From Sarea resinae (Eukaryota), in NCBI GenBank assembly GCA_026026165.1, contig JAPEUD010000094.1, positions 62,001 through 87,481 on the forward strand: DNA of 25,481 bases, read 5' to 3'. The translations under genes and the position numbers were made by a program. Below the pieces are notes generated by a model. The model did no database searches. It was not told the DNA's origin and saw only the letters and a program-made list of their open reading frames with translations. Below are positions 1 to 23,718 of this stretch, in pieces (positions within the stretch are counted from its first letter, which is position 1; each line of letters opens with the position of its first letter).

Positions 1-3000
1 TTAGACGTATAATTATTATTAAGTTTAGTATTATAAAGCAAGACTATATTTCTAATAGCGAACAGCGTTTAGCAAAGCTAGTGCAAGTCATTAAATAACT
101 CTTTGTTTTCCTGCCTAATCCTTTATAGGTGTAGTTATATGTTCTCTAAGTCCTTTGTATAGCGTTCTAGTTGTTAAGCTTAAAGAGCTAAGAGATTAGT
201 AGTGCTACGCACTAAACCCTAATCTAGTATATGCTATATAGGAAGTCTAAGTTTAATAAAAAGGACAGTATTATAGCTATATAAAACTTTGTATAGTGTT
301 TTGCTAGTGCTAGCACAAACAGTTGTTTGATCTGCCTATAAGACTATAGGAAGGTGTTTAACCTAATTGTTTCTGCTACCTTCTGTTAATTTAGATAAAG
401 CATTAACAATAGAGGTATAGCCTCTTTCTATAAGTCTATTTGCTTAAGAGTGATAAGCAGAGACAACTACATAATTAATCTTGTACTTTTCAGCGAGAAT
501 TTCTACAGCGCGTTTATTCTCTAGACCTTTATCTGTAATAAGCTTTTAGAAACATCTGTATTAACAGATAATATTCTCTTAGAGGAACTTTGCAACTAAT
601 TCTAAGGTTGTATTAGTTAGCGCTCTTGCTTTAACCTATCTAGAGAAATCATTGTAAGCGACTATAATATTTTTCTTCTGATTACACTGCAGCATATAAA
701 TCATGTCTAGTCTGACTTTCTTAAAGTATATAAAGGACTATATAGAGTGTAAAGCTTCTTCTTACTAATTTAGCTTCCTCTATTAACATTCTACACAGCT
801 ATAAACATACTGTGCAATCTTAGAGAATAGCTTAAGCCACTAGTATTTATCTGCAATTCTTTAGTAGGTTCCTTCCTAGCCTCTATATCTACTATTATTA
901 TGCGCTTCTTTAAGGACTTGCTGCTAATCTTGTTCTTTATCTATAACTCTTTAGAGAGGCATGTTTTTTAAGGCTCTTTTAAACAGATAATAGTTGTGTA
1001 CAAGAAATTTAACTGTATAGTTCTTAAAGTGTCGAAATTCCTTGCTATCTATATCTTCTAGACAGTCTAGATATATTAGCTAGCGCGCGATCTGTTCTAA
1101 TTCTTTAGAGTAGAGCCCCTTTTTAAGGATAGATCTAGTATCTCTTTCTACTAATATAGGAAAAACTCTTACAGGATACAGCTTAGCATTAATAACATTG
1201 TTAATATTAGGCTTATTCTCTATCTCTACAAGGTCCTTTGCTGTAGCAGGTCGTTATAATAAGCTATCTGCAGCTCTGTGTTTCTATCTTAGAATATAGC
1301 AAACAGTGAAATTAAACAGTTGTATCTAGGCTAGCTACTGTGTCACTAGCGCTCTAGAGAGGTCTAATACAGGCATGTTAAGCTAGGCTACTAGGGTATT
1401 AGCGTCAGATTTAACTGTAAATGCTTGTCTATATAAATAGACTTAGACCTTCTTAAGAGCTTTAAGTAGGCCTTAACATTCTTGCTTTCTAGCATTGTAT
1501 TTTGTTTCTATATTATTCTATAGCCTACTTTTAAAGCAAATTAGATGTTGTTTTCTAGTGTAGAGGTTGATTTGCATAAGCACTACTCCTTAGCCTAATA
1601 GGCTTATGTTAACAGCTAGAATAATCTCTTCTCTATCTAGTTTATAGACTATAGTAATAAGGGCAGGTGCTGTTATTAGAGTATACTTAAGCAGGTCTAT
1701 TGCAAGGATCTAATCCTATCCCTAGATAAAATCAGCATCTTTCTTAAAAAGGATAAAAATTAGCCTGGCTATAATCGCGAAGTCCTTAATAAAGATCTAG
1801 TAGTAGACGCAAATCCTAATAAAGGCATATACCTCTGTAATATTTTTGCATTCTAGCTATTCCACAATTTTTAGGACTTTTATGCTATTAGAGTGCCTGC
1901 TATCTAAGTTGTATATGTATCTAACTATTTTTATACCGCCTATGCTAAATTGTGACTTTTTACTAGACACTATGTATCCTAATCGTTTAATGTCAGCTAG
2001 GACCTTATCTAGTGCCTGAATATGTTCTGCTATAAAGCGCCTTATACTAGGTAGGATCTCCTTATTGTTGTAATTTGTCTTTAGCCCTTTTACACTAATA
2101 TTGTTAAGGAACAGCCTAGCTAGTCTTAGTATATAGTCGGCTAAGATTTTAGTAACAATCCTTACAAACTATGCTACTAAGTTAGTTGCCTCTTATAGTA
2201 AGGTAGTCTGATGTAGCAGGCTAAGTAGTGTTATAAACGCGGTCAAATCTTAGCAATGCTTTACTAACTCGATTTAGTTGTATCTAGAGAAGAAATTAAT
2301 TAAGAAGGCTACCTGTATTCCTGCAAATTCCTCTGAAAACTCCTCTACTAATAGTAGGAGGTTTGTATCTTATATTGTAACCTTGTTAATTGCTATTGCT
2401 GTATTTACTATGCGATATTTTCTGGATTTCTTCTTTATTAGGAACTAGAGGTTTTAGTAAGGCCTATAGCAGGGTTTAAGGAGACTACTCTTAAGCCTTT
2501 CTTAAAGCATCTTAATAATTGTTTTAGTTAGTGCCTGCAGAACTAAGAAGCTGCTCGCCTGCTATACCTTATATAGAATAGTTTAGATCTCTTATAAAGG
2601 CGCAACCTTAGGACAAACCCTTCTAATTTCTAAGAACTCCTATACTAGTGCCTTTTTACAATTATAAAGCATAGCAGTTAGTATCTCCTTTTCTTAGTCA
2701 GTTATATTATCGCTGACAATTATCTTTCCTAGTCGCTTTAAGGTGAGTCTTATTCTTTATAGAAGGTCTAAAAACTTCTTAATTAATAGGGTGTTAAAAT
2801 CCTAAGCTTCTTAGCCTAACTTGTCTCCTTAAGGCTTCTTTAGCTCGTTCTAATCAGCTTTCTTTACAGCCTTTTTCTAATCCCTTACTCCTTCTAGCGT
2901 GCTCCTATCTAAGGTTAACTAATTAACTAGTTTCACCTTTACCTCTTTCTTCTTATACAATGTTTCTACACAAACAGAGTCTTTCCTAGGTCCTAGGTTA

Positions 3001-6000
3001 TATTTAGGATCTAGCATTCTTTTTAACATCTAAAATGTCTTCCTTTCTATTACCTTTAGCGCCTAGAATTGTCTGATCAGGCTCTTTAACTTCTAGTTAG
3101 TCTAGGAGTTTATGTCTAGACTTTGCAACATTTCTAAAGGCTTCTCTATTCGCGTCACTCTTTCTATTAAGTCTTCTTCTTTCGCGTCTTTCACAACTAA
3201 TTGTATAGGCGCTACAGACACCTGCTTAAGGTAGTGCCTGCTACCTAGTTTTTTAAATAGTTAAGAAACATATTGTTATACGCATAGTCTAAAGTGCTCT
3301 CTATCTAAGCAGCGCTAAATATTCTTAACCTCTTCTAGTCCTTAGAGAAGACAGTATATATAGTTGTCCTATCTTCTCTAACCTCTATTCTTATCTAGGA
3401 TGCAATCTAGTACAGCTATCTAAGAATAAGCAGTTGATTAGAATAATTAGCGATAAAGATTAGCACCTATATAATAACCTCTCTAACTTTAACTTTAACT
3501 GCTTCTATATATCTAACAAATGCTGTAGGTTTTCTATTAATGCTAACTATAGTAGTAGCTAGATTTTGAGTCTAGCTAATACTAATATTCTGTGCTATCT
3601 TAAGACTTATTAGACAGATCTTAGCTCTACTATCTAGGAAGGCCTTAGTCTATAGACTCCTTTCTATACTTATATCCGCTATTATACAGCCTGCTACATA
3701 CAGCACATCCTTTGTTAGTTCCTAATCCTAATAATTTAGGCTAGACACCTTTCTAACTATTACTAGTCTTTAAGAGGCATTCTCTTTTAGGTCTTATAAC
3801 CTGTTTTCCTTACTTCTAGACAGCGATTAATATGTTGCTTTAATCTAGTCTTCTGCTAGCTGTTTAAAGAAAATCTTTTAGACGTCTAGAGAACATCCTA
3901 AGAGCTCTTAAACAGTTATATATGCTAGCAGTTAATTAAGGATCCTTCTAACTAGTCCTATAGGATTTGATTCTTCTTTTAGCACATCTAATAGTCGCCT
4001 TTACCTTTGCTTCTTATTTAATACTTAATCTATTTCTATCTCCTCTAGGACTTTAAACTTTACCTCTTTTAAAGTCCTAGACAGTCTAGATATTTGTCGA
4101 TCTTTATCTGTCCTTATATATATAATATCTCTCTCCTTAGTATACTAGTTTCTCTAATAGGTTCCTAGACAGATGTTCTTTGCAGCTAAGAGTTTGTCTT
4201 CTTTTACAATCCTCTGTTTCTATACTCTACTCTAAGGGTTAAGAACCTTTCTACTTTAAGTAGAGTCTAATCTGCATCTTAAAATCTTCTCTAGTTAACG
4301 TGCTACCTAAACTAAGGCAGGGTTTTCACTGTCTTCTACCTCTTTATTAGTATTATTAGCTTGCAGGTCTCTTGCACTAATAGAGGCGATATAAATAGAG
4401 TTGACTCTAATTTCTTCTTTGCGCTAATTGTACTACTTCTTATATTCTCGCTTAGCAAACACAGCGTGATATTCTCCTCTAGGAATCCTTAATTTAGGTC
4501 TACTGCTTTCTTTAGGTCCTAGGCACATTCTGTTTCGCTTGTTAAAGTAGATTTTAGAATAGGCAAGTAACTATCTAATTATAGAGCAATTAGCAACGCT
4601 ATAGTTAGTTCTTCTACACCCCTAACATCCTAGTATAGGTAATTTGCTATTGTTCCTAGCTGAGGCTACTGCAGCACTAGGTGCTAGTTAAGCATTTGCT
4701 AGTCTATTCTGTGTCGCGCCTTAGTTCTACAATATAGGTAGAGAGGCAAGCAGCTTAGCTGTTATTATTGCATTCTTATTTGCTACTTTAACTAGTAGGA
4801 TAAGATTTGCAAGCTAGGTAGTAATATCCTTAATAGCCTTGTTAGTCTTAGCAGCAGTAGTTGTCTAAGTTAGCTTAGAAGTCACTAGAGGCTTAAGTAA
4901 CTTAGCAGAGTTAGTCTTTAGAGTAGGCTTCTAGTTCTTAATTAACAGTTATACTGTCTTAGTTAGTTCCTTTTCGTTAAGCTTTTAAAGGGCCTAGATA
5001 GATTTGCATTGTTTAATAGCAAGGTTATATACTTTCTTAAAGTCGAAGTTAGCAATGCTGTATTTGTTAAGGTTAATATAACTGCAAGAGATAACTTTAG
5101 CTTGTATAGTCTCTAGAAGACCTTATAGAAACTAGAGGAGGTAAGAGTATCTATTAAGTTTTTTTCTTCTAGATAAGACTGTAAGAGATGCTTATAAACT
5201 AGCAGCAGTAATAGCGAATTTCCTTAGCTATCTTCTAGGCTCTAGTTCTATTCTTTAAAGCTTTAAGATAGGTATAAGAGTTAATCTGCTGCTCTATATC
5301 CTAATCAGCATATTCCTACAGCAAGGACTTTTTAAATTCTTCCTAGTCAGTTTTAAATTCCAGCATTATCTTAATGTTCCTTGCAATAATACTCTTATAG
5401 TAGTATAGCAGCCTCTTAAACGCTTTCTCTGCGCTAAGCTAGTAGTCTATACACATTCCTTTGTATCGCTTAAGAAACTTAGTAGCATTGACTCTAGTGA
5501 AATAAGGCACGCTATAACTTCTAGGAGAGGGCATAGGCTGTATATATTAAGGGCTAGAAGACTCTACAGTGCTTTCTCCTAATAGAGTAGGTATTGCTAG
5601 AGTTAACCTTATAATAAGACTTGCGTTTAAGCTAGTAAATAATAAAGACATAGCGGCGATAATAGCTAGTGTAAGAATTCTTATAGTTTCTTAAATAATC
5701 TAAAGAATAACTTTTTTTAATATGTAGTAGCAACTTTTTCTTCTTATCCTCTTCTTCTCTTAGGAAGTCTCTCTCTCTACTCTCTGCTATCGCTATTTAT
5801 TTGTGTTGTTTTGTTAGGGGTACCTCTCTACCTTAGAGAGGTTTGTATAAGAACTCTGCTTACTTGTTTGCTAATAACAGCAAAGAACTTATCTAATCTA
5901 TTAACGTTGTATTATGTTGTTCAGCTTCTTATTTAGTTATAGAGTTAAGTTCTACAATAAGTCTAGGTTGTTGTGTAACTATTAGACTGTCTAGAAGTTT

Positions 6001-6100
6001 GCTAAGAGTGCAATCTCTAATCTAAATCTAAAGCACTCCTTCTCTAATTTATAGGGTCTCTAGCAGCCCTATCTAAATAGCTTTGACTAATCTAATCTGT
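1..6100 (-). pseudogene. Degenerate gag-pol of the Gypsy element (5' boundary approximate)
   Basis: Zinc knuckle C*GCRRTNYSVANC (CX2CX4HX4C relic) 4586-4627. Protease AFLDSRAKIC (D-S-G relic) 3626-3634. RT PY*NL*FLIKKKSRKYRIVN...EEFSEEFAG...DLTAFIT...ATNLVA*FVRIV...FLNN (FLDD relic, 2100-2111). RNase H KQEC*GLLKALKK...FTVKSDA ~1400-1490. Integrase YVYSCVEC ~787-810 and VKHLPIVL*ADQTTV ~315-362. Confidence 0.92.
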
Positions 6101-6204
6101 TTAGCAGTTAATAGTATTAATGTCTTATCTTCCTTACTAATATATCACTCTTTCTAATTCAATATGCTGTTTTAATCTATATTGTTATATACTTAGTAGC
6201 ATTA

Positions 6205-6256
6205 CACTTAACTGCAAATCAAGTGGTTGCAGGTTTAAGCCCTGCGTAGGTCACTA
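6205..6256 (+). other. tRNA-derived extended primer-binding site (3' two-thirds of a tRNA, Trp-like 3' end, loop reads GCA); not a functional tRNA gene
   Basis: Anticodon arm CACTT(A)A-CTGCAAA-TCAAGTG, 5-nt variable loop, T-arm GCAGG-TTTAAGC-CCTGC (RIP form of TTCGAGC), then acceptor 3' strand GTAGGTC-A-CTA (CCA relic). It ends 1 nt before the LTR. No 5' acceptor strand is visible. Confidence 0.8.
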
Positions 6257-6257
6257 A

Positions 6258-6681
6258 TATAGAGGGACAAAATAGACGCACTAAATCAGTGCTAAAGCAG
6301 AACACCTAGACAGTCCTAATAACTCCTTATATAGTTAATAAGATAGCTATAACAACTACTTAACAACCTACTACTAAGGTATAATTAGTGGAATAGCATA
6401 AAGCAGAGGGATTAGAAGGTAACTGCTTCTCTAGGAAAGAAGTAGTAGGAGAACTCTTAATTAATTGATTTAACTAAGGAATAAAGAACTGCACTACACT
6501 CTCTAGAAACATAAAGATCTAACTAAACTAAACTGTGTAAATAACCTCCTAAACACAAATCCTCCTACCTATTACTAAATTGACTCCTATACTAAAGAAC
6601 ACCTATATAACTGCTAACTAAGCTAAACCTAACTGATTTATCCTATAACAGCGCTATTATATCTCTAGCGTTCTACCTACA
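6258..6681 (-). repeat. 5' LTR of the minus-strand Gypsy element (outer end 6681; alternative 6650)
   Basis: Directly abuts the PBS. Termini are TATAG (RIP form of TGTAG) at 6258 and CTACA at 6677-6681, a 5-bp TG...CA inverted terminus. The partner LTR is outside the window. Confidence 0.65.
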
Positions 6682-7870
6682 ACTTACAGCAAACTAGAGG
6701 ATATTATTAAGGCTTTTAACGCTATCTGCAAGTCGTTCTATTACTACAGCTATATAGAGAGCGTTGTTAGATAAGTGCTTATTAGTAGCGTTTATATAGG
6801 CTTTAACCTAGCGAGTAAATTGCCTTTGTAAGTTGTAGAGCATAGCAGCTAATAGCTTCTTAGCAGAGTTATTATTAGCGTAGCTAACTACTATATTCGC
6901 TGCCTTAGTAAGCTAGTTTAGGCGCTTATAGAAGACTATTAGCACCTTTAGCACACTAGGTTAGAGCTTAGCTAGCACTATATAGGAGTCACTCACCTAA
7001 CTACACTTCTTATACAACTAAGTATATTAAGTGCACTTTGTAGCTAATAAGGGCTTTGTACAGACAATATCTAGTGTAGACCTAATAACTTTAGTGTAGC
7101 AAAGGCAAACATCTTAATTTAGTCCTATAGGCTTTTAGAGGGCAGTAGCAGGCTAGTTTATATATAGTAAAGAGGTGGTAAAGCGTCTAGCGTTTATAAT
7201 AGGTAGATAGAGCATATAGAATGTACTTAAAAACGTAGTGCAAAAAGTTTAATTATATGTGTATATAGTAGACTACCTATGTTTTATACCTACACACCTA
7301 TAGCTAAGCAATCTCTAGGCGATAGAAAGAATACCTAATGCAGATAATTTAAAGCATTTACTTTGTTTATTTACTGCTACTACTCTAGCATAATGTTAGT
7401 AAACTAAGTAAACTAGATAAAGAACTCTCTTTATTATTAATACTAATTCACTGTTTGCAGCAAACACTAACGCCACTAAGTCGCTAGCAAGACAAAGACT
7501 TAACACTATAACGTTATACATTGTAAACAAAGGACCTAGAGGACTAGGCCCTAGAAGAGGAGGTAATTATAAGGGCCACTATTAATAGAGGTGCTGTATG
7601 CGGCTCGGCGTAGCGCAGGGTAACCACCTGGTGTGGTCTGGCAACGTTCGAGTAAGCCAAGCGGGGTCATCATTTATATAGATCAATAGGGGCGCTGGCT
7701 ATTAGGGCCAGCGTTCAGTGCAATTACAAAGTCAGTGCCTACTAGCAATATCAATCGTATCAGTTCCGCACCACCAGGGTGACGCCAGCATGCCGCAGCG
7801 TACTAGCCTATTCGATCGTGCTATTCCTACCTACTCTACCATAGCTAGAAGTCCAGGAGGCGAGCTGACA
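6682..7870 (+). mobile_element. 3' end of a second, plus-strand LTR retrotransposon (3' internal region, PPT, 3' LTR; right boundary uncertain)
   Basis: Purine tract AGAAGAGGAGG 7553-7563, then TAAT, then TATAAGGG at 7568 (RIP form of TGTAAGGG). The LTR-like body has TTTATATA ~7673-7680 and a CGCTGGC/GCCAGCG hairpin ~7693-7713. Confidence 0.55.
6688..7197 (-). pseudogene. RIP-damaged spliced gene for a small Zn2Cys6-like protein, antisense within an LTR element 3' region
   Basis: Reads DVCLCYTKVIRSTLDIVCTKPLLATKCT*YT*LYKKCS*. Restoring TAC/TAT to TGC/TGT gives C-X2-C-X11-C-X8-C-X2-C-X6-C (7003-7107). Intron 6946-6996 is GTGAGT...CTAAC...AG. An 86-codon second exon (6945-6688) follows, then a GTAAGT donor cut by the LTR. 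Start is approximate. Confidence 0.7.
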
Positions 7871-7887
7871 GCATGCCGGTAGCTGAT

Positions 7888-8088
7888 TGTTTCAGCTTCG
7901 CGCGCGGCATGAAATTTCGCATTATCAAGCGCAAGGTTTTGCTGAGGAACCCTGCAAGCAAACGGGCACATATGATCCTGGGAGGAAGGTCGTTTATTCC
8001 GAGTCGTCGTTCCGCGAGCATATACAGTATGCAGTTGCTATCACTTAAAATCATGCCAGTTTTTCATGCCGCGCGCGAAGCTGAAACA
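7888..8088. mobile_element. MITE-like 201-bp element with perfect 27-bp terminal inverted repeats
   Basis: TGTTTCAGCTTCGCGCGCGGCATGAAA (7888-7914) is the exact reverse complement of 8062-8088. Ends are TG...CA. No target-site duplication is evident. Confidence 0.7.
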
Positions 8089-8382
8089 GACAGGCGAGCC
8101 ACACCCGGACCGCACGGCTGAGTAGGTAGCATTGGGTCCAGACCTGCCACTGACGCCGTATCCTTTGCAGCCAGTCGACATTTCATTTTCTATGTTAGTA
8201 TTTCCTCAGGCACCCTCGCACAGCATTCTCCAACTTCCTCAGCCCGAACGCCACACCTACACATTTCCAACATTCTATTCATCCACCTTCTGACCTCTTT
8301 ACCCTCCTCCTGTTTTCTTGCACTCGAGCTCATTCCCCTCTGTTTTCAACCACGACGTTGCACTCAATTATTGCACTTTACC

Positions 8383-9213
8383 ATGTTTCTCTCGGTCATC
8401 TACGTGCTATGCGCCGTGGCAGTAGCGAGAGCGGTCGAGGAAGGTCGACAACATCCTCTGGTGCACGGAAATCCAAGTGGCCCTGGAGACATGCCCGGCG
8501 GTTCAATTGTCAGATTGTGTCCGGAATCAAGCGACACCGATGTCCTGGCGATCGAGCGCATTGTCAACAGCCCCCAGGTACCTATTTTGTATGTCTTAAC
8601 AACAATCTGACCGTCTGCTTAAGTTTGATTTCTGACCTGATTGGAGTGTTCAGGAACCAAGAAGAAGATGTTTTTATTTGGGGTGATTATTACTATTATT
8701 ATTGTTCCACCGTTTTTAAGATCAGCTTGAGCATCTCACCTGACTAACGTCTATGTCATTATGCAGGCAACTTGACCCGCGACATCTCAAGATACTCAAC
8801 CGTCGATTATCAGATCAATGTGACCGCAAACACTGGAGACTTTGGCGCGCTCAATAGCACATTCCACATCTGTGATTATCTCGAGAAGATGCACCAGCCT
8901 CCTGATTCGGACGAACCCGAAAAAGCATGTCCCCCGAGTGAAGGACCCATATTTATTGATTACGCATTTTGGTTTGCGGACTGGCTGGTCGCTCCTGTAT
9001 GCATTTGATGACTATTTTTGAACCTGAACGGCGGCTCACGGCTTTGTATAGGGACAGTGGAGCGTCCGATTTGACGCTAAGACCCCAGAGGGAGACAGGA
9101 TCTATTGCTTTCAAACAGAATTCGATCTCCAATGTCCTCCAGAACATGACGGTCCAGAGTGTTTGCGCAACACATCTGACACACTCAAGATCAGCTGGAT
9201 GCTGCAAGATTAA
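8383..9213 (+). CDS. Secreted ML-domain (MD-2/NPC2/PG-PI transfer protein-like) lipid-binding protein, ~208 aa
   Basis: Exons 8383-8588, 8654-8682, 8767-8996, 9052-9213, joined by GT-AG introns in consistent phase. Hydrophobic signal peptide. ML-type pattern MPGGS..C..SSDTDVLAI..I..SP / ICDY / CPP..G / PGQWSVRFDA...G.RIYCF. Confidence 0.8.
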
Positions 9214-9764
9214 ATGGATGATCAGATCGGGTGAAGGCTTTGAGTGGCGGAGGTGGCTGGCCTTTCGAGTTCATTTTCGAACATCGAAGTAGCAACTTTT
9301 GATTCTGAAATCAAACATATATAATGTTTTCAAAGCCTCCTGGAATGGACACCAGACCAGACCCGCTGGCCTGCAGTGCGGAATATGCATTACGGAGTCG
9401 CGGCCAAAAGTCTTGCAACACGCCCACAGCAACCAGGTCACAGGACCTCCAATGAGCTTTCAGGGTATTTGTGCGTCATAATTTTGCGAGCCACCCAGCG
9501 CCCAGGCGTCCTTTGGGGGCCCCATACAGTGGCTCTAGCGGCCTTTACAGAAACCCGTTGCAAGACTTATGGCCACGACCTCCGTACAGCTTCTGTGTCG
9601 ATGTCGGTGTCGGTGTTGGATATTACGAGTGCATGCTCTGCCACTCCTTTTGCCCGGCTGGACCAGTCAAGAAAGTGCCTTAGTGTGACATAGTTGATGT
9701 CTTCCTATCTGTGCTACGAACTGGATGCGTGTTAGTGATGTACAATTAAAGTTATTGGTCACAG

Positions 9765-10030
9765 GAGTTATAGTTTTTTAGTATAGTTTTACTATCTAGT
9801 TATCTACTCTATAGATACACTTCAAATATAGAACTAATGTACAGTAAGCTGTGGAATCTATAAATTGCTATTAGTTCTACTAAGGTCAAAATTTTTATTA
9901 TTATTATGTTTTTAATGTACAGTCTAGTATATAGGTAAACCTCTTCCTACATAAGCTAAAAAGACTGCTATCCGGCTCGTCTAAGTTATAGTTCTTTGCC
10001 TACTATATAGTGTAGAGTTCCTTTTAAGAG
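9765..10030. repeat. Short AT-rich RIP-type remnant, unclassified
   Basis: Abrupt TpA-rich patch within GC-balanced DNA. It contains a 10-bp inverted pair TAGAACTAAT/ATTAGTTCTA (~9829-9879). Confidence 0.5.
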
Positions 10031-10609
10031 CTATCCGCCGTCTTGTCTTTCAGCCGGTCTACGCATGGTAGGCGAAAACGAATCTCTTGTTCCTGTACCG
10101 AATAGCAGCAGCGATAACTTTGGCGAGGAGAGCTAGATGGGGAAGGAGCAGGTGATGGCGAGGTTGATGGCCGCGGACCTAAGAACGGGTTGCAGTATCA
10201 GTTGCTGACAGCTCCGCGCCGTAGGAGTGCTGTCTCTAGTAGTGAAGACGAGAATCTAAAAGATGCCAACCGAGATTCATCTCGGCATGCAAGTCAAGGC
10301 ATAATCTCCAAAAGCCGATTCGACATAGTAGAGAATGGCCGACTCCTGGTCCGCGTTCTCAAAGATCAGAAACGTCTCACGTCGACGGCCCCAGTCAGAA
10401 AAGACCGCAATACCAAAAGGCCAACTGCCTTCACCGGCGCCTTCTGCATGATCCGTGTTATAATGAACTACCAATTTTGCTGACATTGAGCGGCTGATAC
10501 ACCACAGATAACTTGATAGTATGTTATGGCCCATTTACATACTAGTGACACCACTCCAAAATTGTGCGGCGTCAGCAGGATAATTGGTGAAGAAGGTGGA
10601 CTGATCTCG

Positions 10610-13020
10610 TCACAACACACTTGAGTGACCATCATCGTTCAGCCAGCCATTCATGACGGCATTCCAATCCGGCAAATATGGAATCTCTGGCATTGACAGA
10701 TCCAGAGATGAAAAGATGTTCTGATTGGAATCAGCAACGAACTCTTGACCTGATTCGGGGAGGGTGGATGTTCCTTGCGTTGTTGCTGTTGTGCGGGTGG
10801 GCGGCGAAATTTCGATATCTGGCAGAAGCTGGGAAGTACAAAGTTCGCCACTGCTGGACAACTGGATCTCGACATCGGCCGTGGCCATAGATAGCTGGGC
10901 CTGTTGTCTCAATGATAAAGCTTGGAATCGGAGTAGGTTGAGACATCTCGAAATGCTACCGTGCCCATATTCATCATCGAGCCCCGCGGAATGACCATGG
11001 AGACTCATTCCGCGAGGAAAGAGCTCTTCGACCAAAGTCCAGGCACGTTCTGTCTCGACGCCACAGGGGCTACTACAGAGACAGCGTAGAACGTAGGCGA
11101 GGGCGTACCATTGCGTGTACATGTTGAAAAACCATTTGAATCTGGAAGCAACACCCTCCTTCAATGACACATAATTACTTTCCAGCCCATCACAGGCTAA
11201 CTTGAAAGACGGCTTGAGCTTGTCAGGAATCGCATCATCTTGCGCCCCTTTTTGCTTTTGCGTGCTGATCTCCTCTCGTAGTTGCAGCACGAACTCCATT
11301 TTCTTAGAGGCAGTGGTGATATGTTGAAGTGCGATGCGCGACAGATCAGTCAGCGTTCCAGACCCGGATGGAATACCATATTTAGCTGACAAATATTGAC
11401 CATGCTCCTGAATCATCTTTCGTCTTGCTGTGATATCAGGAAGAGCATCTGCGGAATGTTGCTCTTGAGTCTCAAGAACTGGATGTAGTAGCCGGCACGA
11501 CTCAGTTTGAATCAGAAAGAAGGACATTTCCGTCCAACCATCCGACTCCACTGGAAAGCTTGTCATGTCTGGATAGATTTGATTGTCATTCACATTCAAG
11601 GGAAGTCGTAGTTCCCCGTTCATGACATCAACCGTGGGTTGAAATCCCTGATCCTCCGGGGCACGAGAGTCAAGCACACATAGATGCCACCAGAGACGAA
11701 GACGCATTTCCGTCTCAAAGGGGCTCAGTTGGAGGCAGGCACCATCTCGGTGCACGCCAATCGATTGGGCGAGCCGGATCGCCAGCCCATTGAGAACCCA
11801 TACACTCCGGCCAATTTCATGGGCCCGTAAACAAGTCTAGAGCAGACGTGATCAGTTAGATGGACCAATCGAGTAAGGGTGCACTCAATATTGATTCCAG
11901 GGCGAGCCTCGGTACTCACCACATATATTGCGAGAGCCTGTAATGCCGTCATTTCAGGTCGATTCATGAGATCGGTCACCATGAGAAGTCGGTCCAAGGA
12001 CATCTTATAGCGTTTCAAGAGCACCGGCTTCTCTTCAGGTAGCTCGATGGGTTCGTTCTTATCATCATGACCAAGGGCCGTGACGGCGGCAAAATAGATG
12101 GAAAATGTCAATGCCACCGTTGCAGATCCTGCAGATTTGGGGTCCAGAATGGTTGCAACAACGGCAGACTGGGCGGTTGGTAGATGCAGAATCTTGAGGA
12201 CCGGATCGACCGACTTGACGTACACAGTCCATAACCGAAGGGCTAGTTGGGGATCAGGATAGAATTCCAGCACATCAGAAACCATGTCTGAAGGAGCACA
12301 AGCACCTGGCTGCGCAAGAAGTGTATGATGAGCATCTGTACCTTTCTGAACATGCGAAGGTGCTGTTTCCGAGCCAGTAGGTTGAGCAATTTTGATTCTT
12401 TCTCCCTGATGGACGTGCCATATTAGCTTAGCCAGGGTATGTATGATGGATGATACACTTATAGAGGGGACTAAAACTTGAATAAATTCTAAGAAGAAAT
12501 CCAGACTCACACCTTGCAGTGAAATCTCGATATTCAAATTATTCACATACCGGACAACTTGTCCATCATTCAATAATAGCTCCCATGTTGACTTGCAGGA
12601 GCGTTGATCGGATGGATGTTGATTTGCAGTTGCATTGACATTCGCACCAGATTGAAGCTGAACCCGAGTCTGAGACTCGCCACCACCACCACCACCATCT
12701 GCTGCAGATTCCGTAGTGACTCGACTGCTCTCAGCAAAACGTGATAGCAAAATTTCCAGTCGTTCCAGGCGGTTGGAGATGCTTTGGAGAGTGGGGCTTT
12801 TGCGTGCCAATTCGCTGTTCTTTGTGCGATACACGCAGGTCAAACCACATCTCGAACAGTTGGCGCAAGGCACTCCGTGATCACAGCGGACCTTACGCCG
12901 ATGACAGCTCAGACAGGACCGTGCCCCTAATCTGTGACTCTGCGGGGACGATTCCCGGAATGGGTGTGCCATGTCATTATTATCGGAAGAGGTAGATGAC
13001 CTCTTTTGTACTCTGGCCAT
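10610..13020 (-). CDS. Zn2Cys6 transcription factor with fungal-specific TF (middle homology) domain, ~740 aa
   Basis: SCLSCHRRKVRCDHGVPCANCSRCGLTC; VDPVLKILHLP; SVWVLNGLAIRLAQSIGVHRDG...RLRLWWHLCVLD. Exons 13020-12511, 12405-11920, 11836-10610 (introns GTGAGT...CAG and GTGAGT...CTAAC...TAG). Alternative ATG at 12972. Confidence 0.93.
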
Positions 13021-13722
13021 AATCGCTGATGCCACGTCGTTCAATGCCCATCAATTTGGAGAAGATACTTGAGAGAAAGAAAACCATAATTGATTCCAGC
13101 AAGCAGCTCGAAGTCGAAAAAGAAAACGATGATAAGGAAGTATTGCTGCGAGTAGGAAATGCTCTGCACCAACAAGGGGAACCTGTGGGGTAGTGGCGAT
13201 CTCCTCGGCCTGTCGGGACCGAGATGTCCGCAATGATCTACCATAGGGCATGAGGTCGGGTGGAGTGGATGTTGGTCTCCACCTCTAGCTCCAGCTGCAT
13301 CCACCGGCGTTCTCGGCGCCGCTGGCTCCGTAGGTACCTGCCGTCGTCAATGCTCCATTACCTGTAACCTTGAAGATACCTGTACCGGGCCAGTCACAAT
13401 CCAGCGCCGACGGACGGCCAAGTCCTACCGCCCGACATCATCCTCAACACAACAACACAACGCAACAACAAGAAAGGAAAAAGAAAGGGCGCATGCCGAT
13501 GATTACACGATTTTCCAACTATTGCTCGGACAATCGGATCACCATGGAAGATCCTACCGGTATAAATGTATATCATTATCACTCCATCCCGTCGAGTCAA
13601 GTAATAACAATCCGCACTCTCCAGAGATCAAGTCGTGCGTTCGACTCACGCCCAAATTGCAGAAGGCCTCCCTTTTTATTTGAATTCGCATCAGTGGTAC
13701 TCGATCCCCAGACCCTTTCATC
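13021..13722. promoter_or_regulatory. Divergent promoter between the TF and the DHA1 transporter
   Basis: Head-to-head genes. TATAAA at 13561. CGG-N5-CGG at 13527-13537 and further CGG/CCG triplets at ~13304-13330 and ~13407-13417, typical Zn2Cys6 half-sites (binding is inferred). Confidence 0.55.
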
Positions 13723-15421
13723 ATGTCAGATACGGATATCGAGAAAGGTGTCCACGAAAGCACCAGCGGCTCCCCGTTAGCTTCGGGTCCGGTCGACGAG
13801 CGCTATGAGCCCCGAAAGGCTGTGAATGCCACGAGCTGGAGTCTGGGGTTGAAAATTTCTCATACTGCCATCCCTTGCTTCCTGGCCTTTTTGATGTGGG
13901 TTTTGGGCGACCCGGGAAGCATGTCGTGTGCTCCTGCTGACCAAGTCATAATCAATCGAAGCACATTTTCCGCGTCCGTCACAGCTCCTGCCACTTCGAT
14001 GCTCATGGTTGAGTTCAACATCAATCGTACGGAAGCCCTTCTCGAGCAAACCCTATATATGTTGGGGTTGTCGTTCGGCCCTTTGATCCTGGCGCCCCTG
14101 TCAGAGTTTATTGGTCGTCGTTGGCTGTACCTGGTAACCTCATCGAGCATAATCGCTTTCGCAGGAGGTTCCGGAGCTGCACGAAATTTTGCCACCCTTT
14201 TGATCTGCCGTTTTCTCTGTGGATTCTTGGGATCAGCCGGAATCGCTATCGGTGCGGGGACAATCGTCGATATTTGGGGGGTGGCGAAAGCTGGAGGATT
14301 GGCAAGGCTTCTCTTCATTTGCGGCCCATTCTTAGGACCAGCTATGGGTCCATTGGTAGGGGCATACGTTATGCACGAATACAATGACGATTGGAGATGG
14401 ACCCAGTGGACGGTGGCCTTGATTGGAGCACCCATCTGGATTCTGGTCCTTTTCATGAAGGAAACTACTGACTTTCGGATCGAACGTGGTGCTAACTACT
14501 CAGGCCGTTTTGGCATTGTGCAATTGGCCCTGTCAACACTAAAGGCTGCAGTGCTCCGTTCAATGGCCATGCTTACCACGGAGCCTATCGCGTTATCCCT
14601 GACTCTGTACACGGGATACGCATACGCAATGGTCTTCAGCTTTTTCGCGAGCGCCACTTATGTCTATTCCCTAGATTATGCTTTCAATCCTCGACAGATT
14701 GGCCTTTCTTCTATCAGTGTGATCATTGGTTATTGTCTGGCTGCTGTCATGCACATGATCTTCGAGATGACACTTTATGCTCGAGCCGTGCGGCAAGCAC
14801 CCAATGGCCGTCCGGCCCCAGAGCACCGACTGTACACTGCTATGGCTGGAAGCATTTTCTTGCCCATTGGGCTATTCTGGTTCGTTCGATATCTTCCTGC
14901 AGGAGGCCAACTTAAGCTTTCAGTATCAAGCTAATCTTCACACTTACGATTGCAGGTACGCATGGGAGGCGCACCGAGGCGGCCACTGGGCAGCAGTCAT
15001 GGCCAGCGGTATCCCATTTGGTCTTGGTGCTTTTGTTCTCTTTGTGAGTTCTCCATTTTCCCTTGTGAAAACCAGAGGTTTCTTACTGAGTCCCTTTCCT
15101 TCAAAGCTGTCCTCAATAATATACCTTGTCGAGTCGTACGGGGCTGGTGCTGCTGCGTCTGGTAAGTCTTCTTAATTTTGTGTACTAAGCGCATAATTCA
15201 TGGCTCACGCTGCAACAGCTCTCGCTGCAAATGGATCTGTTCGTTACCTCCTAGGAGCGGTATTCCCTTTGTTCACCATTCAGATGTATGAGAACCTGGG
15301 CATCCATTGGGCTGGAAGTGTGTTTGGCTTTCTGTCTTTAGCGCTCCTTCCTATCCCTTGGCTACTGTTCAAATTCGGCCATTTGCTCCGGAATAAGAGC
15401 CGTTTCATAGCATCTGTATAG
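13723..15421 (+). CDS. MFS drug:H+ antiporter, DHA1 (12-TM) family, ~478 aa
   Basis: GPLILAPLSEFIGRR, RFLCGFLGS, GPFLGPAMGPLVG, WRWTQW, PEHRL and LAANGSVRYLLGAVFPLF motifs. Exons 13723-13895, 13962-14879, 14956-15043, 15107-15161, 15219-15421 in consistent phase. Confidence 0.93.
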
Positions 15422-16115
15422 ATAGAGTACTAGAGAGTGATGAAGATAAATCTAGTAGCATAGTTAGAGCAGCGCCAAGCATCTATTCGCTCACCAATTG
15501 GCAAGAACCCCTGAATTCGCATTATTAATCTCTTTATATGGCTAGAATTCATATTAAAAATGGTTGAGAAGAACTAACAAGGGACTAGCTTAATGAATAC
15601 AAGCTGCTTATCCTTGCTTCATTCCTAGACAACGTAGATTGCGCTGAGATTATGTTTTACCGATTGATATCTCCTTAGACCTACAATGTCTAAGGCTATT
15701 AGAGTTGTAAATTCCTTTAAGGGTGATAGCAGCGACCTTCTAGTAACTTTAAGGTTATAATTCTAATAATCCCTACGATACTAGGTAGTTAGTTTAAAAG
15801 AATTCCGATTTCCTATTTTCCTACTCTTTTCCTATAGGTGTGTAAAATAGCTTACAACCTAGGGTAGAGATTATAATAGTCTTAACATAGTACTTACACT
15901 GTTTAGGAATTCCAAACTATAGGTAGTTCTACTAGGTGTTTAAACTGCTATAAGACTGTGTTAGAATCCTAGATTTAGCTATAAGGTACTACTAGGTACT
16001 ACTATTATGTAATAATTCTACCAATCTACAAATTATTTAGGTTAGTAAGTGCACTCTATAATCTACTTAACCTAATTTAATGATAGCCTACTGAGAGGTA
16101 ATTTTTTTAGGGTTA
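15422..16115. repeat. AT-rich RIP-type transposon remnant(s), unclassified
   Basis: TpA-rich, CpA/TpG-poor tract with no ORFs. Contains small inverted repeats at 15673-15695 and 15697-15768. Confidence 0.6.
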
Positions 16116-16391
16116 GAGATCTTCAGCGTGCACACTATCTTTGCCTTTACCTAGAATGCTGAGTCCAGCTATTCCAGTCACTATTCCTCGCTTGTACCAG
16201 ATGAGCTCCTCTCCCTGGCCCTGATTCCCAGCGATTATCGCGAGCGGAGTCAAAGGCATCGAGTTATCGTGGTCCGAAGATAGCAGGTTGAAGCTGATCG
16301 CGGGGTGGACACGAGAATTCGCGTAAATCCCCAAATTTTTGACACAAAACTGTACCTTATGTCGCTCTCGATCGACCTAAAGCTCTGCGTC

Positions 16392-18127
16392 ATGAACCCT
16401 CCCCAATCCCGTCCCGAAGCGTGTCACAACTGTCGACGCCGGCGCTTGAAATGCGATCGGTCTCTTCCGCAGTGTCTTAAATGTATCAAGAGAGGTCAAG
16501 AATGCCTGGGCTATCAGCGCCTATTTCGCTGGGAGCAGGGCGTTGCGAGTCGTGGGAAGATGGCGGGTATGACGTTCGAGGAGATGAGGAAGGATCGAGC
16601 AAGGCGCGAAGAATCAAATCCGCACTTACCGTCTCCTGCCAGCTTTTCGAGGCAGCAGCTCTCACGCGGATATACTGACGTCTCGCCGCTTGGGTCCCTG
16701 ACGGACCCTCTGGTGCAAGACTTGAATCATGCTTCGAGAAAGTATCTGTTTTACTGTGAGCTTCCTTCGCCCTCTTGCTCAGTCCCTAATACCAATCAAG
16801 GTTCGTATCATAGTTGCTAGTGATGTCTGCAGAGACCTCGTCCTCTACGACATTCCCAAACATAAACCTTTCCGCGAGCTCATTCCCTTGGCGCAACAGC
16901 ATGCAGTCCTCCTTCAAATCATCATCGCCAGCTCAGCACTGCATATGTCGAATGCGTGCCAGAAATCCTTGGTTTTGGACACGACCGCTTTTCCCCTTCG
17001 CGATCGCACAAGTCTACTGGGCTCTCCATGCTCCAGCTCGTCCGCAATCCAACAACTAGAATCTTACAATGATGCTCTCGCAGCTAAGCAGCGGGCTCTT
17101 TACCTACTGAAATCCGCTCTCACCAGTGTAGCTTCAGTGGATATCGATGTAACTCTGGCGGTGGTGCTCCTCTTCATCGAATTCGAGCTCATCGACTCCG
17201 GACGAGATAACTGGAGATACCACATCAATGGCGCAAGAACGATTATCGAGACATTGTGTGGATCAAACATATCGACGCAGATCGCCATGAGCCCGCTGCG
17301 CAGCTGTTTGATCTCAAATTGCTTGGTGTATGACGGGCCCCTCGATTCAAAAACCGTTCTCAATACACACTGACCTGTTTCACACCAGGTTCGACATTCT
17401 CGGCTCGACGCTCGCAAGCTCCATTAGCCTCGTACCCAGTGATACGTTTTCAACTGGCGCTCTGTCACTACTGCAAGACGCAGAAGGCAATCACTGCTCT
17501 TCATTCCCCACAATCCTCCTCCAGCTAATTCGAACTGGAGCTCAATTATGCCAACCCAACCACCAACCCTCTCTGTACTCCTCGAACGGCTCCAAACAAC
17601 AACAAGCTCTCCTCCTCCTCTACACCGCGCAATCCTTCAACCCTTTCACCTGGGCCACAGACCTCCAATCGCGCTCACCCGCCACCGACCTCCTGCACCG
17701 CACACACATCGCTTCCGCACACCGCGCAGCCGTGTGCATCTATCTCTCCCGCGTCCTTCTCTCCATCTACCCCACCACCCAACTCTTCCATGACCTTGAT
17801 TCCCTAGTAGCAGATATCATAACTCACCTCTCATTTATCCGCCCCCAAAACGCCCTATTCACAGCAACAACCTGGCCGGCTTTCATTGCGGGAGCAGAAA
17901 CGAACGATCGCGCGAGGCAGGAATGGGTGGCGACAAGATTTCAAGAACTGTGGGAAGTTGAACCGTGGGGGTTGATAAGAGGGGCGTTGGGGGTGTTGGA
18001 GAGGATATGGGTGGGGAGGAGTGGGGTGGTGGTGAATGGAGACGGAACTCTACTGAAGGGGAAGGAGGGGGGCGGGGATTGGATTAGGGAGTTGAGAGGG
18101 AGGGGCGTTGATTGGCTTATTGTATAA
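16392..18127 (+). CDS. Zn2Cys6 transcription factor with Fungal_trans_2-type domain, Acr-2-like, ~538 aa
   Basis: ACHNCRRRRLKCDRSLPQCLKCIKRGQECLGY, RWEQGVASRGKM, WRYHINGA and TTWPAFIAGAE. Exons 16392-16755, 16814-17327, 17389-18127. Alternative ATG at 16359. The Acr-2 resemblance is from recall, not a search. Confidence 0.9.
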
Positions 18128-22728: not shown

Positions 22729-22794
22729 GAGAGTCAAGGACTACAACGACCTGATAGTATAGAAACAGTACTAGATTCAACTTTAAATGTATAA

Positions 22795-23614: not shown

Positions 23615-23718
23615 TATTAGAATTATAACCTTTATTCTAGTTACTCTTAAGTATCTAGACTGTTAGAATTATAACCTTAATTCTAGTCACTCTTAAGTAT
23701 CTAGACTGTTACAGAATG
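23615..23718 (+). repeat. Two tandem 5'-end fragments (46 bp and 58 bp) of the same Copia LTR, oriented opposite to the adjacent LTR
   Basis: 23661-23719 is the exact reverse complement of 24180-24238. 23615-23660 is a more mutated copy of the first 46 bp. Confidence 0.85.

What the first reader, a model, noticed from the sequence alone, without database searches (positions are those of the whole stretch)
6688..7197. Hidden intron-containing Zn2Cys6-like gene carried antisense in an LTR retrotransposon
Seen: on the minus strand, four intact Cys plus two Tyr codons (TAC, TAT) one canonical RIP step from Cys give C-X2-C-X11-C-X8-C-X2-C-X6-C. A GTGAGT..CTAAC..AG intron, an 86-codon exon and a second GTAAGT donor follow. 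The gene lies just upstream of a plus-strand PPT and LTR start and is RIP-damaged like the TE, implying it is multicopy. Known: canonical Zn2Cys6 has X6 in the first loop, and introns survive retrotransposition only when antisense to the element RNA. Inference: this element family carries its own spliced, divergent zinc-cluster accessory gene, possibly driven from the 3' LTR, that could regulate the element or the host. It is absent from the ORF track.
Basis: partly seen in the sequence, partly recalled or inferred. Interest (0 to 1): 0.78.

Follow-up and report, generated by a model that had tools for sequence, protein, structure and literature searches.

The report
Dead zinc-cluster-like gene inside fungal repeat
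A mutation-riddled copy of a real, intron-containing, cysteine-rich fungal gene sits inside a many-copy mobile-element remnant, hinting that a jumping-gene family carries its own regulator-like protein, although which way round it is carried is not settled.

Summary
On the minus strand, 7197..6688 is a RIP-wrecked copy of a real gene. An unmutated relative exists: P0022, 194 aa, NCBI KAI9829878.1, from a fungal MAG (phmmer E 1.1e-36). It differs at 64 of 153 codons, and 60 of those 64 are explained by C>T/G>A changes alone.

Contigs of the same organism show further, differently mutated copies.

- The only gag-pol in the window (Ty3/Gypsy, 5651..3) is on the same strand as the gene, so the gene is not antisense to it.
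- No integrase lies next to the gene on the plus strand.
- No third exon follows the second GTAAGT.
- A purine run (7553-7563) and a 282-bp TG...CA unit (7592-7873) do flank the gene's 5' side. An antisense position in a second, plus-strand LTR element therefore remains my favoured arrangement (about 0.45). The rival is a sense position in the Gypsy leader.
- Pfam Zn_clus does not hit, so "Zn2Cys6-like" rests on Cys spacing and weak similarities.
- Antisense accessory genes in LTR elements are already known (brtn in Botrytis; plant Retand).

The parts
6997..7197 (-). Exon 1 of the degenerate Cys6 gene (67 codons). The start codon is ATA at 7197-7195, from ATG.
   Evidence: Gapless match to P0022 aa 1-67.
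7003..7107 (-). Six-Cys motif C-X2-C-X11-C-X8-C-X2-C-X6-C. Here two Cys codons are mutated to Tyr (TAC at 7098, TAT at 7026), there are two internal stops, and one Arg codon is mutated to Cys (7101).
   Evidence: P0022 reads CLRCAKVIGSTPDIVCTKASSAAKCTRCARLHKKC.
6946..6996 (-). Intron 1, 51 nt, GTGAGT...CTAAC...AG.
   Evidence: P0022 lacks exactly these 17 codons. The junction KKCSQ|VPTVF in P0022 matches KKCS*|VLIVF in the window. In 5 other contigs the donor reads GTAAGT (6994).
6688..6945 (-). Exon 2 (86 codons, 3 stops). Predicted helical part of the protein.
   Evidence: Match to P0022 aa 68-153. Helices 68-92, 94-123 and 128-154 in a low-confidence model.
6682..6687 (-). GTAAGT directly after codon 153. 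Similarity to P0022 ends here. It may be a second donor or a break point; this is unresolved.
   Evidence: No match to P0022 aa 154-194 anywhere in the window at E<=50. Another copy is contiguous across this point: a 287-nt contig on 6650-6920 with 28 differences (record 6).
7198..7591 (-). RIP-mutated stretch between the gene's start and the terminal repeat unit. Presumed 5' UTR and promoter-proximal region.
   Evidence: TpA/ApT 1.89, GC 0.33. Contigs of other copies run through it into a RIP-mutated version of 7600-7622.
7553..7563 (+). Purine run AGAAGAGGAGG, a candidate polypurine tract. It lies 28 nt before the TG at 7592, and AATAGAGG abuts that TG.
   Evidence: One of only 4 purine runs of 10 or more on the plus strand of 1-8000.
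7592..7873 (.). 282-bp LTR-like terminal unit, TGCTGT...ACAGCA (6-bp terminal inverted repeat). It is not RIP-mutated in this copy and is RIP-mutated in other copies. The repeat ends here.
   Evidence: Sequence. The RIP indices switch at 7600. The loose end at 7599 is a C>T/G>A version of 7600-7622, with 9 of 9 differences of that type. Summed contig depth falls to the single-copy level (about 336) from 8017, and a zero-difference single-copy contig starts at 7833. No second copy is in the window, so its LTR status is inferred.
7673..7680 (-). TATATAAA on the minus strand inside the terminal unit, pointing toward the gene. Candidate TATA box.
   Evidence: Read from the sequence. Function is inferred.
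5652..6687 (.). Unresolved spacer between the gene and gag. It probably holds the Gypsy element's own 5' LTR. Candidates are 6688..5974 and 6312..5988 (TGTCTAG...CTAGACA).
   Evidence: The highest summed depth is in bins 6013-6680. The purine bias of the plus strand flips near 6200-6300. The terminal-repeat search gave 208 candidates and is not significant.
4500..5651 (-). gag of a RIP-mutated Ty3/Gypsy element. ATG at 5651; CCHC knuckle at 4627 with His mutated to Tyr.
   Evidence: Read from the translations. There is no Pfam hit, so this is assigned by eye.
3..3650 (-). Protease (DSRA from DSGA, near 3643), RT, RNase H and integrase of the same Ty3/Gypsy element. It runs off the left end of the window.
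   Evidence: Pfam RT_RNaseH 1.7e-12, RT_RNaseH_2 7.9e-11, Integrase_H2C2 1.8e-9. Pol relatives reach E 1.8e-252 and align to 2798..3.

Best explanation
Minus strand 7197..6688 is a RIP-inactivated copy of a real, spliced gene. The gene encodes a small protein of the 194-aa class with three parts. The N-terminus has a six-Cys motif that resembles a Zn2Cys6 cluster with five extra residues in its first loop. A helical middle follows. The intact relative also has an acidic tail.

The gene is part of a multicopy repeat. On its promoter side this repeat ends in a 282-bp TG...CA terminal unit (7592-7873).

Most likely arrangement (inferred, about 0.45). That unit is the 3' LTR of a plus-strand LTR element, preceded by a purine tract. 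The gene lies antisense in the element's 3' internal region and would be read from a TATA box inside or near the LTR. A separate minus-strand Ty3/Gypsy element (gag-pol 5651..3) is nested in or abuts it and cuts off the gene's 3' end.

In intact copies the product would act as a small nuclear DNA-binding regulator (inferred). In this window the gene is dead: 9 stops, a lost start codon and two lost Cys.
For: The gene is real:
- phmmer of the minus frame 7698..5653 against 1.84 billion representatives gave P0022 at E 1.1e-36, covering query residues 169-339, which is window 7194..6682.
- tblastn of P0022 aa 1-153 matches 7197..6688 at E 2e-42.
- In the spliced, gapless comparison of 153 codons, 89 are identical and 64 differ. 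60 of the 64 are derivable by C>T/G>A only, in the direction P0022 to window. Shuffled controls gave 14.2 +/- 3.2, maximum 27 of 5000. In the reverse direction only 2 are derivable.
- All 9 stops derive from Q or R codons, and both Tyr codons from Cys.

It is multicopy:
- 1792 contigs of run X1 were laid on 1-10000 at 80% likeness or more.
- Summed depth is 3805-5571 over the gene against about 336 in the unique flank.
- 735 of 801 differing places are transitions.
- At 6 listed exon-2 places, 4-6 other contigs carry G/C where the window has A/T. 3 of the 4 non-synonymous ones restore the P0022 residue.

The terminal unit and orientation:
- TGCTGT...ACAGCA ends coincide with the RIP boundary.
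- Other copies are contiguous across 7599, and there they are RIP-mutated.
- The purine run 7553-7563 is 1 of only 4 on the plus strand of 1-8000.
- Plus-strand purine bias rises above 0.5 from about 6300 to 7700, against below 0.5 over the Gypsy element.
- The intron is retained.
- No near-identical pol accompanies P0022 in the protein collection. The best pol relative reaches at most 73.5% identity even after allowing for RIP, against 97% for the gene.

Zinc-cluster likeness:
- Cys spacing.
- BLASTP E 0.001 to a Pfam-verified Zn_clus host protein.
- Atlas structure neighbours of residues 24-72 have TM 0.57-0.75; 8 of 10 rows are Zn(2)-C6 clusters, all under the tool's bar.
Against: - The carrier's own gag-pol is not in the window, so 'LTR element' rests on one terminal unit that has no partner here.
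- The purine run is 28 nt from the TG rather than abutting it.
- The TATA box is equally consistent with a 5' LTR of a minus-strand element.
- The gene region's summed depth (3.8-5.6 thousand) resembles that of the Gypsy gag-pol (0.9-9.3 thousand), and the gene and gag-pol are co-directional.
- A second copy is contiguous across 6688 (record 6). This speaks against a one-off Gypsy insertion exactly there.
- The tool warns that summed contig depth is not a copy number.
- P0022 is the only relative found: 1 of 561 candidates, and 1 real hit. It sits once, on one 139,551-nt contig, as an ordinary host gene would.
- Pfam Zn_clus gives no hit even at E<=10.
- The AlphaFold model is poor, pLDDT 56.
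- Expression and function are untested.
Confidence: 0.45

Rival explanations
1. There is one element, not two. 7873..7592 is the 5' LTR of the minus-strand Ty3/Gypsy element. The Cys6 gene lies in sense orientation in an unusually long (about 1.9 kb) leader upstream of gag. The intron is kept because unspliced RNA is the template for copying, as in retroviruses.
For: - The gene and gag-pol are on the same strand, about 1 kb apart.
- Their summed depths are similar.
- Another copy is contiguous across 6688 (record 6).
- TATATAAA at 7680..7673 lies about 70% into the unit when read on the minus strand, a usual place for a U3 promoter (the 'usual place' is recalled).
- No convincing separate 5' LTR for the Gypsy element could be proven.
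Against: - No TGG-type primer-binding site directly follows the unit on the minus strand. The first TGG is 13 nt in.
- If the gene were an integral part of this Gypsy, the genome with the intact gene should also yield a near-identical pol. None was found: the best is at most 73.5% after allowing for RIP.
- Depth peaks at 6013-6680 and purine bias flips near 6300, which suggests a unit boundary between the gene and gag.
- A first ORF 1.5 kb ahead of gag would hinder gag translation (inference).
Confidence: 0.25
2. The gene is an ordinary host gene, and P0022 is its intact form. A fragment of it (start codon to codon 153, with intron 1) was picked up by, or duplicated along with, repeats and then destroyed by RIP. 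It is a passenger with no role for any element.
For: - Similarity to P0022 stops at codon 153 and the last 41 residues are nowhere in the window.
- P0022 is a single-member cluster on one long contig.
- Gene fragments captured by mobile elements are common (established knowledge, recalled).
Against: - P0022 has no detectable relatives among 5.8 billion clusters at near lengths or in the exhaustive scan run with the window copy. That is unusual for a conserved host gene.
- About 97% pre-RIP identity contrasts with a host transporter gene whose best named relatives are 73-79% identical, none of them from the MAG that holds P0022.
- The copy starts exactly at the start codon and keeps a TATA-bearing upstream unit that is itself repeated.
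Confidence: 0.2
3. There is no gene. The Cys/Tyr spacing and the splice-like signals are chance products of AT-rich, RIP-mutated DNA.
For: The pattern alone is at chance level, and intron-like strings recur.
Against: E 1.1e-36 and 2e-42 matches to an intact protein, with the exact Cys pattern and the exact intron, and 60 of 64 differences of RIP type.
Confidence: 0.01

Closest known systems
brtn, the additional antisense gene of Boty-like (BcGypsy1) LTR retrotransposons of Botrytis cinerea (Zhao et al. 2011, Virology 417:248). I saw it only as a citation and in passages of PMC8365987 and PMC4227169.
   Same: A fungal LTR retrotransposon family that carries an extra gene besides gag-pol, reported as antisense.
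   Different: No sequence likeness could be tested, because brtn was not available from a tool. The P0022 search at near lengths found no Botrytis protein. Here the antisense position is inferred, the carrier's pol is unseen, and the product has a six-Cys motif and an intron.
Antisense additional ORFs between pol and the 3' LTR of plant Ty3/Gypsy lineages (Retand, Grande, RIRE2). I read the abstract and passages of PMC11963269.
   Same: In the favoured model the position is the same (next to the PPT and 3' LTR, antisense). The product is proposed to bind DNA and regulate.
   Different: The plant ORFs mostly encode the TRP28 domain and sit in regions of 2.9-6.6 kb. Here the protein is a 194-aa-class zinc-cluster-like protein in a fungus, 395 nt from the repeat unit.
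HTLV-1 HBZ. It is named as an antisense retroviral protein with nuclear localisation in PMC11963269 passages. Its bZIP nature, splicing and 3' LTR promoter are recalled.
   Same: It works like the proposed case: an antisense, spliced, transcription-factor-like gene read out of the 3' LTR.
   Different: HBZ is from a retrovirus of humans and has a different DNA-binding fold. Nothing here has been shown at the RNA level.
Fungal Zn(2)-Cys(6) binuclear cluster transcription factors (Gal4 type, Pfam PF00172).
   Same: Six Cys. The second half, C-X8-C-X2-C-X6-C, is within the canonical ranges. A helical stretch follows, and the relative has an acidic tail. There is weak BLASTP similarity (E 0.001) to a verified member at 13050..11728.
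   Different: The first loop is X11 rather than X6. The Pfam model does not hit. The protein is very small and lacks a Fungal_trans domain.

Membership tests
Fungal Zn(2)-Cys(6) binuclear cluster domain (Pfam PF00172 Zn_clus) | Match to the family profile above its curated score | tested here: not met
   hmmscan of P0022 and of the window copy at E<=10 gave no Zn_clus hit. The only hits were Med27 (E 3.8) and DUF3973 (E 6.4). None of the 6 frames of 1-7700 hit at E<=0.1. Two host genes in the same window do hit (2.3e-8; 1.2e-9).
Fungal Zn(2)-Cys(6) binuclear cluster domain (Pfam PF00172 Zn_clus) | Six Cys spaced C-X2-C-X6-C-X5-12-C-X2-C-X6-8-C (signature recalled) | tested here: not met
   P0022 reads C-X2-C-X11-C-X8-C-X2-C-X6-C. 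Five of the six spacings are in range. The first loop is 5 residues too long.
Fungal Zn(2)-Cys(6) binuclear cluster domain (Pfam PF00172 Zn_clus) | Fold of the two-zinc cluster | tested here: inconclusive
   Atlas model, residues 24-72: TM by query 0.57-0.75 to 10 rows. 8 rows are clusters that carry or are named Zn(2)-C6, and in 4 rows the aligned part is PF00172. All are under the tool's bar, and the stretch is short. My own model has pLDDT 56, so no fold search was run.
Fungal Zn(2)-Cys(6) binuclear cluster domain (Pfam PF00172 Zn_clus) | Binds two zinc ions and DNA | not testable with these tools
   Needs purified protein.
Antisense additional ORF of an LTR retrotransposon (brtn, Retand or Grande type) | Opposite strand to the carrier's gag-pol | tested here: inconclusive
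   The only gag-pol in the window is on the same strand as the gene. A second, plus-strand carrier is inferred only from a purine run, a terminal unit and strand bias.
Antisense additional ORF of an LTR retrotransposon (brtn, Retand or Grande type) | Lies between pol and the PPT / 3' LTR | tested here: inconclusive
   The PPT-like run and the TG...CA unit lie 395 nt or less from the gene's start. No plus-strand pol lies on the other side.
Antisense additional ORF of an LTR retrotransposon (brtn, Retand or Grande type) | Present in many copies of the element family | tested here: met
   Several differently mutated copies of exon 2 and intron 1 occur in contigs of the same organism. Their linkage to complete elements was not seen.
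RIP-mutated repeat | TpA/ApT high, (CpA+TpG)/(ApC+GpT) low, and copies that differ by C>T/G>A (thresholds recalled) | tested here: met
   Indices for 6680-7200 are 2.41 and 0.62, against 0.53-1.0 and 1.2-1.4 in the flanks. 735 of 801 differing places are transitions. 60 of 64 codon differences are of RIP type.
Ty3/Gypsy (Metaviridae) element, for the neighbour at 5651..3 | Order gag(CCHC)-PR-RT-RNaseH-IN on one strand | tested here: met
   Pfam RT_RNaseH, RT_RNaseH_2 and Integrase_H2C2 in that order on the minus strand. Pol relatives E 1.8e-252. CCHC and DSGA remnants were read by eye. LTRs were not proven.

The most novel reading that the evidence does not exclude
A fungal LTR retrotransposon family carries its own spliced, antisense, zinc-cluster-like transcription factor gene, read out of the 3' LTR. 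This would be an HBZ-like arrangement in a fungus. An almost identical intact copy (about 97% before RIP) sits in a MAG under a different fungal label. That would point to recent horizontal spread of the element, with RIP then silencing the whole family in this genome.
Probability: 0.3. Interest if true: 0.8.

Novelty: new variant of a known kind. Interest (0 to 1): 0.6.

Why it matters
If the gene truly belongs to an LTR element, it would be a mobile element that encodes a DNA-binding regulator of the class fungi use most. It could tune the element's own promoter or host genes.

It would also extend the short list of fungal retrotransposon accessory genes. The one I found cited is brtn.

The case shows as well that a reader working from RIP logic alone can recover a gene that no ORF finder sees. 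And it gives a ready test system: one intact copy in a public MAG and many dead copies here.

Tried and rejected
- No whole genome is held for this window.
- Earlier findings of this scan returned nothing by place, sequence or words.
- A purine/pyrimidine-collapsed BLAST of 5400-7700 against the window gave only noise.
- A RIP-tolerant Smith-Waterman search found no second copy of 7592-7873, 6690-7591 or 5974-6689 in the window. Scores were at shuffle level, while the positive control scored 515-523.
- No RNA holder was listed by the look-up of sequencing runs, so expression could not be looked at.
- Runs X2 and X3 held next to nothing.
- Only 40 of 850 variant places were printed by read laying. 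The two Tyr positions (7097, 7025) were not among them.
- Scans for loci encoding P0022 relatives found none: viral contigs, metagenome contigs with P0022, and metagenome contigs with alignment A1.
- Scans for Gypsy relatives in viral contigs found none, with P0001 or with alignment A2.
- phmmer of P0022 against PDB sequences gave 0 hits at E<=10.
- The AlphaFold2 model of P0022 had pLDDT 56, so I ran no fold search.
- The search for LTR ends of the Gypsy element by terminal inverted repeats in the purine/pyrimidine alphabet gave 208 candidates and is uninformative.
- TAATAG as a RIP-mutated primer-binding site was dropped. It occurs 16 times on the minus strand, and at 7584 it is part of a palindrome.
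- Stop-codon density per frame is suggestive but not decisive.
- P0023 and P0024 (E about 5e-5, repeat proteins) were judged compositional matches and not followed.
- Supplements of the papers were not opened. Zhao et al. 2011 itself was not read.
Full report
**1. Setting**

The window falls into an AT-rich block at 1-7600 (GC 0.32-0.36) and GC-normal sequence beyond it. RIP indices are extreme in the block. For 6680-7200, TpA/ApT is 2.41 and (CpA+TpG)/(ApC+GpT) is 0.62. From 7600 on they are normal.

**2. The observation**

Minus strand 7107..7003 reads CLCYTKVIRSTLDIVCTKPLLATKCT*YT*LYKKC. GTGAGT lies at 6996, CTAAC at 6964 and GTAAGT at 6687.

On its own the pattern is not significant:
- An equally relaxed C/Y pattern occurs once in 1-7600, once in 22501-25481 and twice in 8000-15000.
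- 12 of 100 simulated blocks hold one or more.
- Pfam on all six frames of 1-7700 gave no Zn_clus hit.

**3. The gene is real**

Three proteins passed E 0.001.

Two were repeat proteins at about 5e-5, which I take as compositional matches. The third was P0022, at E 1.1e-36. It covers query residues 169-339, which is window 7194..6682, the finding's own span.

P0022 is 194 aa: NCBI KAI9829878.1, 'MAG: hypothetical protein M1819_005976 [Sarea resinae]'. It is a cluster of one member on one contig of 139,551 nt. What it shows:
- It reads CLRCAKVIGSTPDIVCTKASSAAKCTRCARLHKKC. Both Tyr codons of the window stand where P0022 has Cys, and the spacing C-X2-C-X11-C-X8-C-X2-C-X6-C is exact.
- It lacks exactly the 17 codons 6996..6946. 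With that 51-nt intron removed, the two exons (7197..6997 and 6945..6688) align to P0022 residues 1-153 without a gap.
- Of those 153 codons, 89 are identical and 64 differ.
- 60 of the 64 can be derived from a codon for the P0022 residue by C>T or G>A changes alone. Shuffles gave 14.2 +/- 3.2, maximum 27 of 5000. In the reverse direction only 2 can be derived.
- All nine stops come from Gln or Arg codons, and the start codon is ATA from ATG.

Before RIP the window copy was therefore up to 97% identical to P0022.

**4. It is multicopy**

One public DNA run (X1, kept as contigs) holds 75% of the sampled words of 5600-9000. I laid it on 1-10000 at 80% likeness or more, and 1792 contigs mapped.
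- Summed depth is about 336 in the unique flank from 8017 on.
- It is 900-18,000 across 1-8016, and 3805-5571 over the gene.
- 735 of 801 differing places are transitions.

The tool warns that summed depth is not a copy number. Distinct copies are nevertheless visible:
- A 287-nt contig lies on 6650-6920 with 28 differences.
- At six listed exon-2 places, 4-6 contigs carry G/C where the window has A/T.
- Of the four non-synonymous ones, three restore the P0022 residue (A135, A121, R109) and the fourth goes halfway.

The two Tyr positions were not among the 40 of 850 places printed.

**5. What surrounds it**

*The neighbouring retrotransposon.* Its genes are on the minus strand, the same strand as the gene.
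- Pfam finds RT_RNaseH, RT_RNaseH_2 and Integrase_H2C2 in the frame starting at 7697.
- 21 pol relatives were found, the best at E 1.8e-252. Eight of them align to 2798..3.
- By eye, gag starts at ATG 5651, a CCHC knuckle lies at 4627 (His mutated to Tyr) and a protease motif near 3643.
- The integrase runs off the left end of the window.

So the gene is not antisense to the visible element, and it does not lie between an integrase and a PPT here.

*The other side of the gene.*
- The plus strand has AGAAGAGGAGG at 7553-7563. This is one of only four purine runs of 10 or more on that strand of 1-8000.
- A unit at 7592-7873 begins TGCTGT and ends ACAGCA.
- RIP stops within eight bases of its inner end.
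- Three contigs that follow the internal sequence up to 7599 go on with a string that differs from window 7600-7622 at 9 places, and all 9 are G>A or C>T. Other copies therefore continue through this unit and are RIP-mutated there.
- Depth drops to single-copy level after it, and a zero-difference single-copy contig starts at 7833.

I read this unit as an LTR, but the window holds no partner copy.

*Simple arithmetic on the depth bins.* This gives about 27,000 for the unit against about 5,000 for the gene region, the excess expected of an LTR. It is inference from a measure the tool says is rough.

**6. Which way round?**

For a plus-strand carrier, with the gene antisense:
- the purine run;
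- a plus-strand purine fraction above 0.5 from about 6300 to 7700, against below 0.5 over the Gypsy element;
- retention of the intron;
- no near-identical pol accompanying the intact gene in the protein collection. The best pol relative reaches at most 73.5% identity even after allowing for RIP.

For a single minus-strand Gypsy with the gene in its leader:
- gene and gag-pol are co-directional and close;
- their depths are similar;
- a second copy is contiguous across 6688;
- a good TATATAAA at 7680..7673 points toward the gene, about 70% into the unit;
- I could not prove a separate Gypsy 5' LTR. There are candidates at 6688..5974 and 6312..5988, but 208 equally formal candidates exist.

Similarity to P0022 ends at codon 153, and the last 41 residues are nowhere in the window. 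The 'second donor' is therefore unconfirmed. It may be a real donor whose exon lies beyond an interruption, or simply a break point.

My estimates are 0.45 for antisense in a second LTR element, 0.25 for sense in the Gypsy leader, and 0.2 for a passenger host-gene fragment.

**7. What the protein is**

- Pfam gives nothing for P0022 at E<=10, and PDB sequences give nothing.
- My AlphaFold model is poor (pLDDT 56). It shows three long helices after the Cys region.
- BLASTP to the host Zn2Cys6 factor at 13050..11728 gives E 0.001 and 28% identity over 140 residues. That factor hits Pfam Zn_clus at 2.3e-8.
- The Atlas model of residues 24-72 has Zn(2)-C6 clusters in 8 of 10 nearest rows, TM 0.57-0.75, all under the bar.
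- For the whole protein, the nearest clusters by features are unnamed Ascomycota proteins.

'Zinc-cluster-like' is a fair description. Membership of Zn_clus fails on the profile and on the first loop.

**8. Relatives and host**

- A word-indexed search with P0022 at near lengths found only P0022 itself (1 of 561 candidates).
- Scans of viral and metagenome contigs found no locus.
- The host transporter gene at 13723-14931 has best named relatives at 73-79% identity in several classes, and none from the MAG that holds P0022.
- The near-identity of the Cys6 gene may therefore mean horizontal spread, or simply an incomplete or loosely labelled MAG. I cannot tell which.

**9. Known precedents**

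- Passages of PMC8365987 and PMC4227169 cite Zhao et al. 2011 for brtn, an additional antisense gene of Boty-like retrotransposons in Botrytis. I did not read that paper.
- The abstract and passages of PMC11963269 describe antisense ORFs between pol and the 3' LTR in plant Retand, Grande and RIRE2, and compare them with retroviral antisense proteins such as HBZ.

The kind is thus known. A zinc-cluster-like, intron-bearing example in a fungus would be a new variant.

**10. Verdict**

The copy in the window is dead. The decisive step is to look at the DNA around the intact relative and at full-length copies in this genome.

Noticed in passing
window 7592-7873 versus 1-7591: RIP stops abruptly at about 7600, inside a repeat. 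This copy of the 282-bp terminal unit is unmutated (GC 0.53), while other copies in the same organism are C>T/G>A mutated there. I have no proven explanation for why this copy escaped; short length below the RIP threshold is a guess.
   Followed up: partly
window 7883-7914 and 8062-8093: A 32-nt inverted repeat, 94% complementary, with 147 nt between the arms, lies directly outside the terminal unit in GC-normal DNA. It may be a foldback or a MITE-like remnant. The right arm is at single-copy depth.
   Followed up: no
window 13050-10610 (-) and 16419-16532 (+): Two ordinary host Zn2Cys6 transcription factor genes lie in the same window. Pfam Zn_clus scores are 2.3e-8 and 1.2e-9, and the first also has Fungal_trans at 1.7e-7. 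They flank an MFS transporter gene at 13723-14931 (+).
   Followed up: partly
window 24290-25481 (-): A RIP-mutated Ty1/Copia pol remnant (Pfam RVT_2, 5.9e-20, followed by an RNase H-like stretch) runs in from the right end of the window. Its 3' region and presumed LTR would fill the AT-rich block 22500-24290. It shows no likeness to the Cys6 gene or to 7592-7873.
   Followed up: partly
window 23617-23708 and 23661-24238: A 46-nt direct repeat occurs in tandem, and a perfect 59-nt inverted repeat has 460 nt between its arms. Both lie inside the right-hand AT-rich block.
   Followed up: no
window 6940-6634 (-), exon 2 of the Cys6 gene: Weak phmmer matches (E 4.5e-5 and 7.7e-5, 18-23% identity, 5-7 stretches) to about 37-residue repeats of two large fungal NACHT/HET-type proteins (P0023, P0024). 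I judged them compositional, but the helical part of the protein may be repeat-like.
   Followed up: no
window 5724-6102: One contig of the same organism joins 5724 to 6102, skipping 377 nt. So at least one copy lacks the stretch that holds the candidate inner end of the Gypsy 5' LTR.
   Followed up: no
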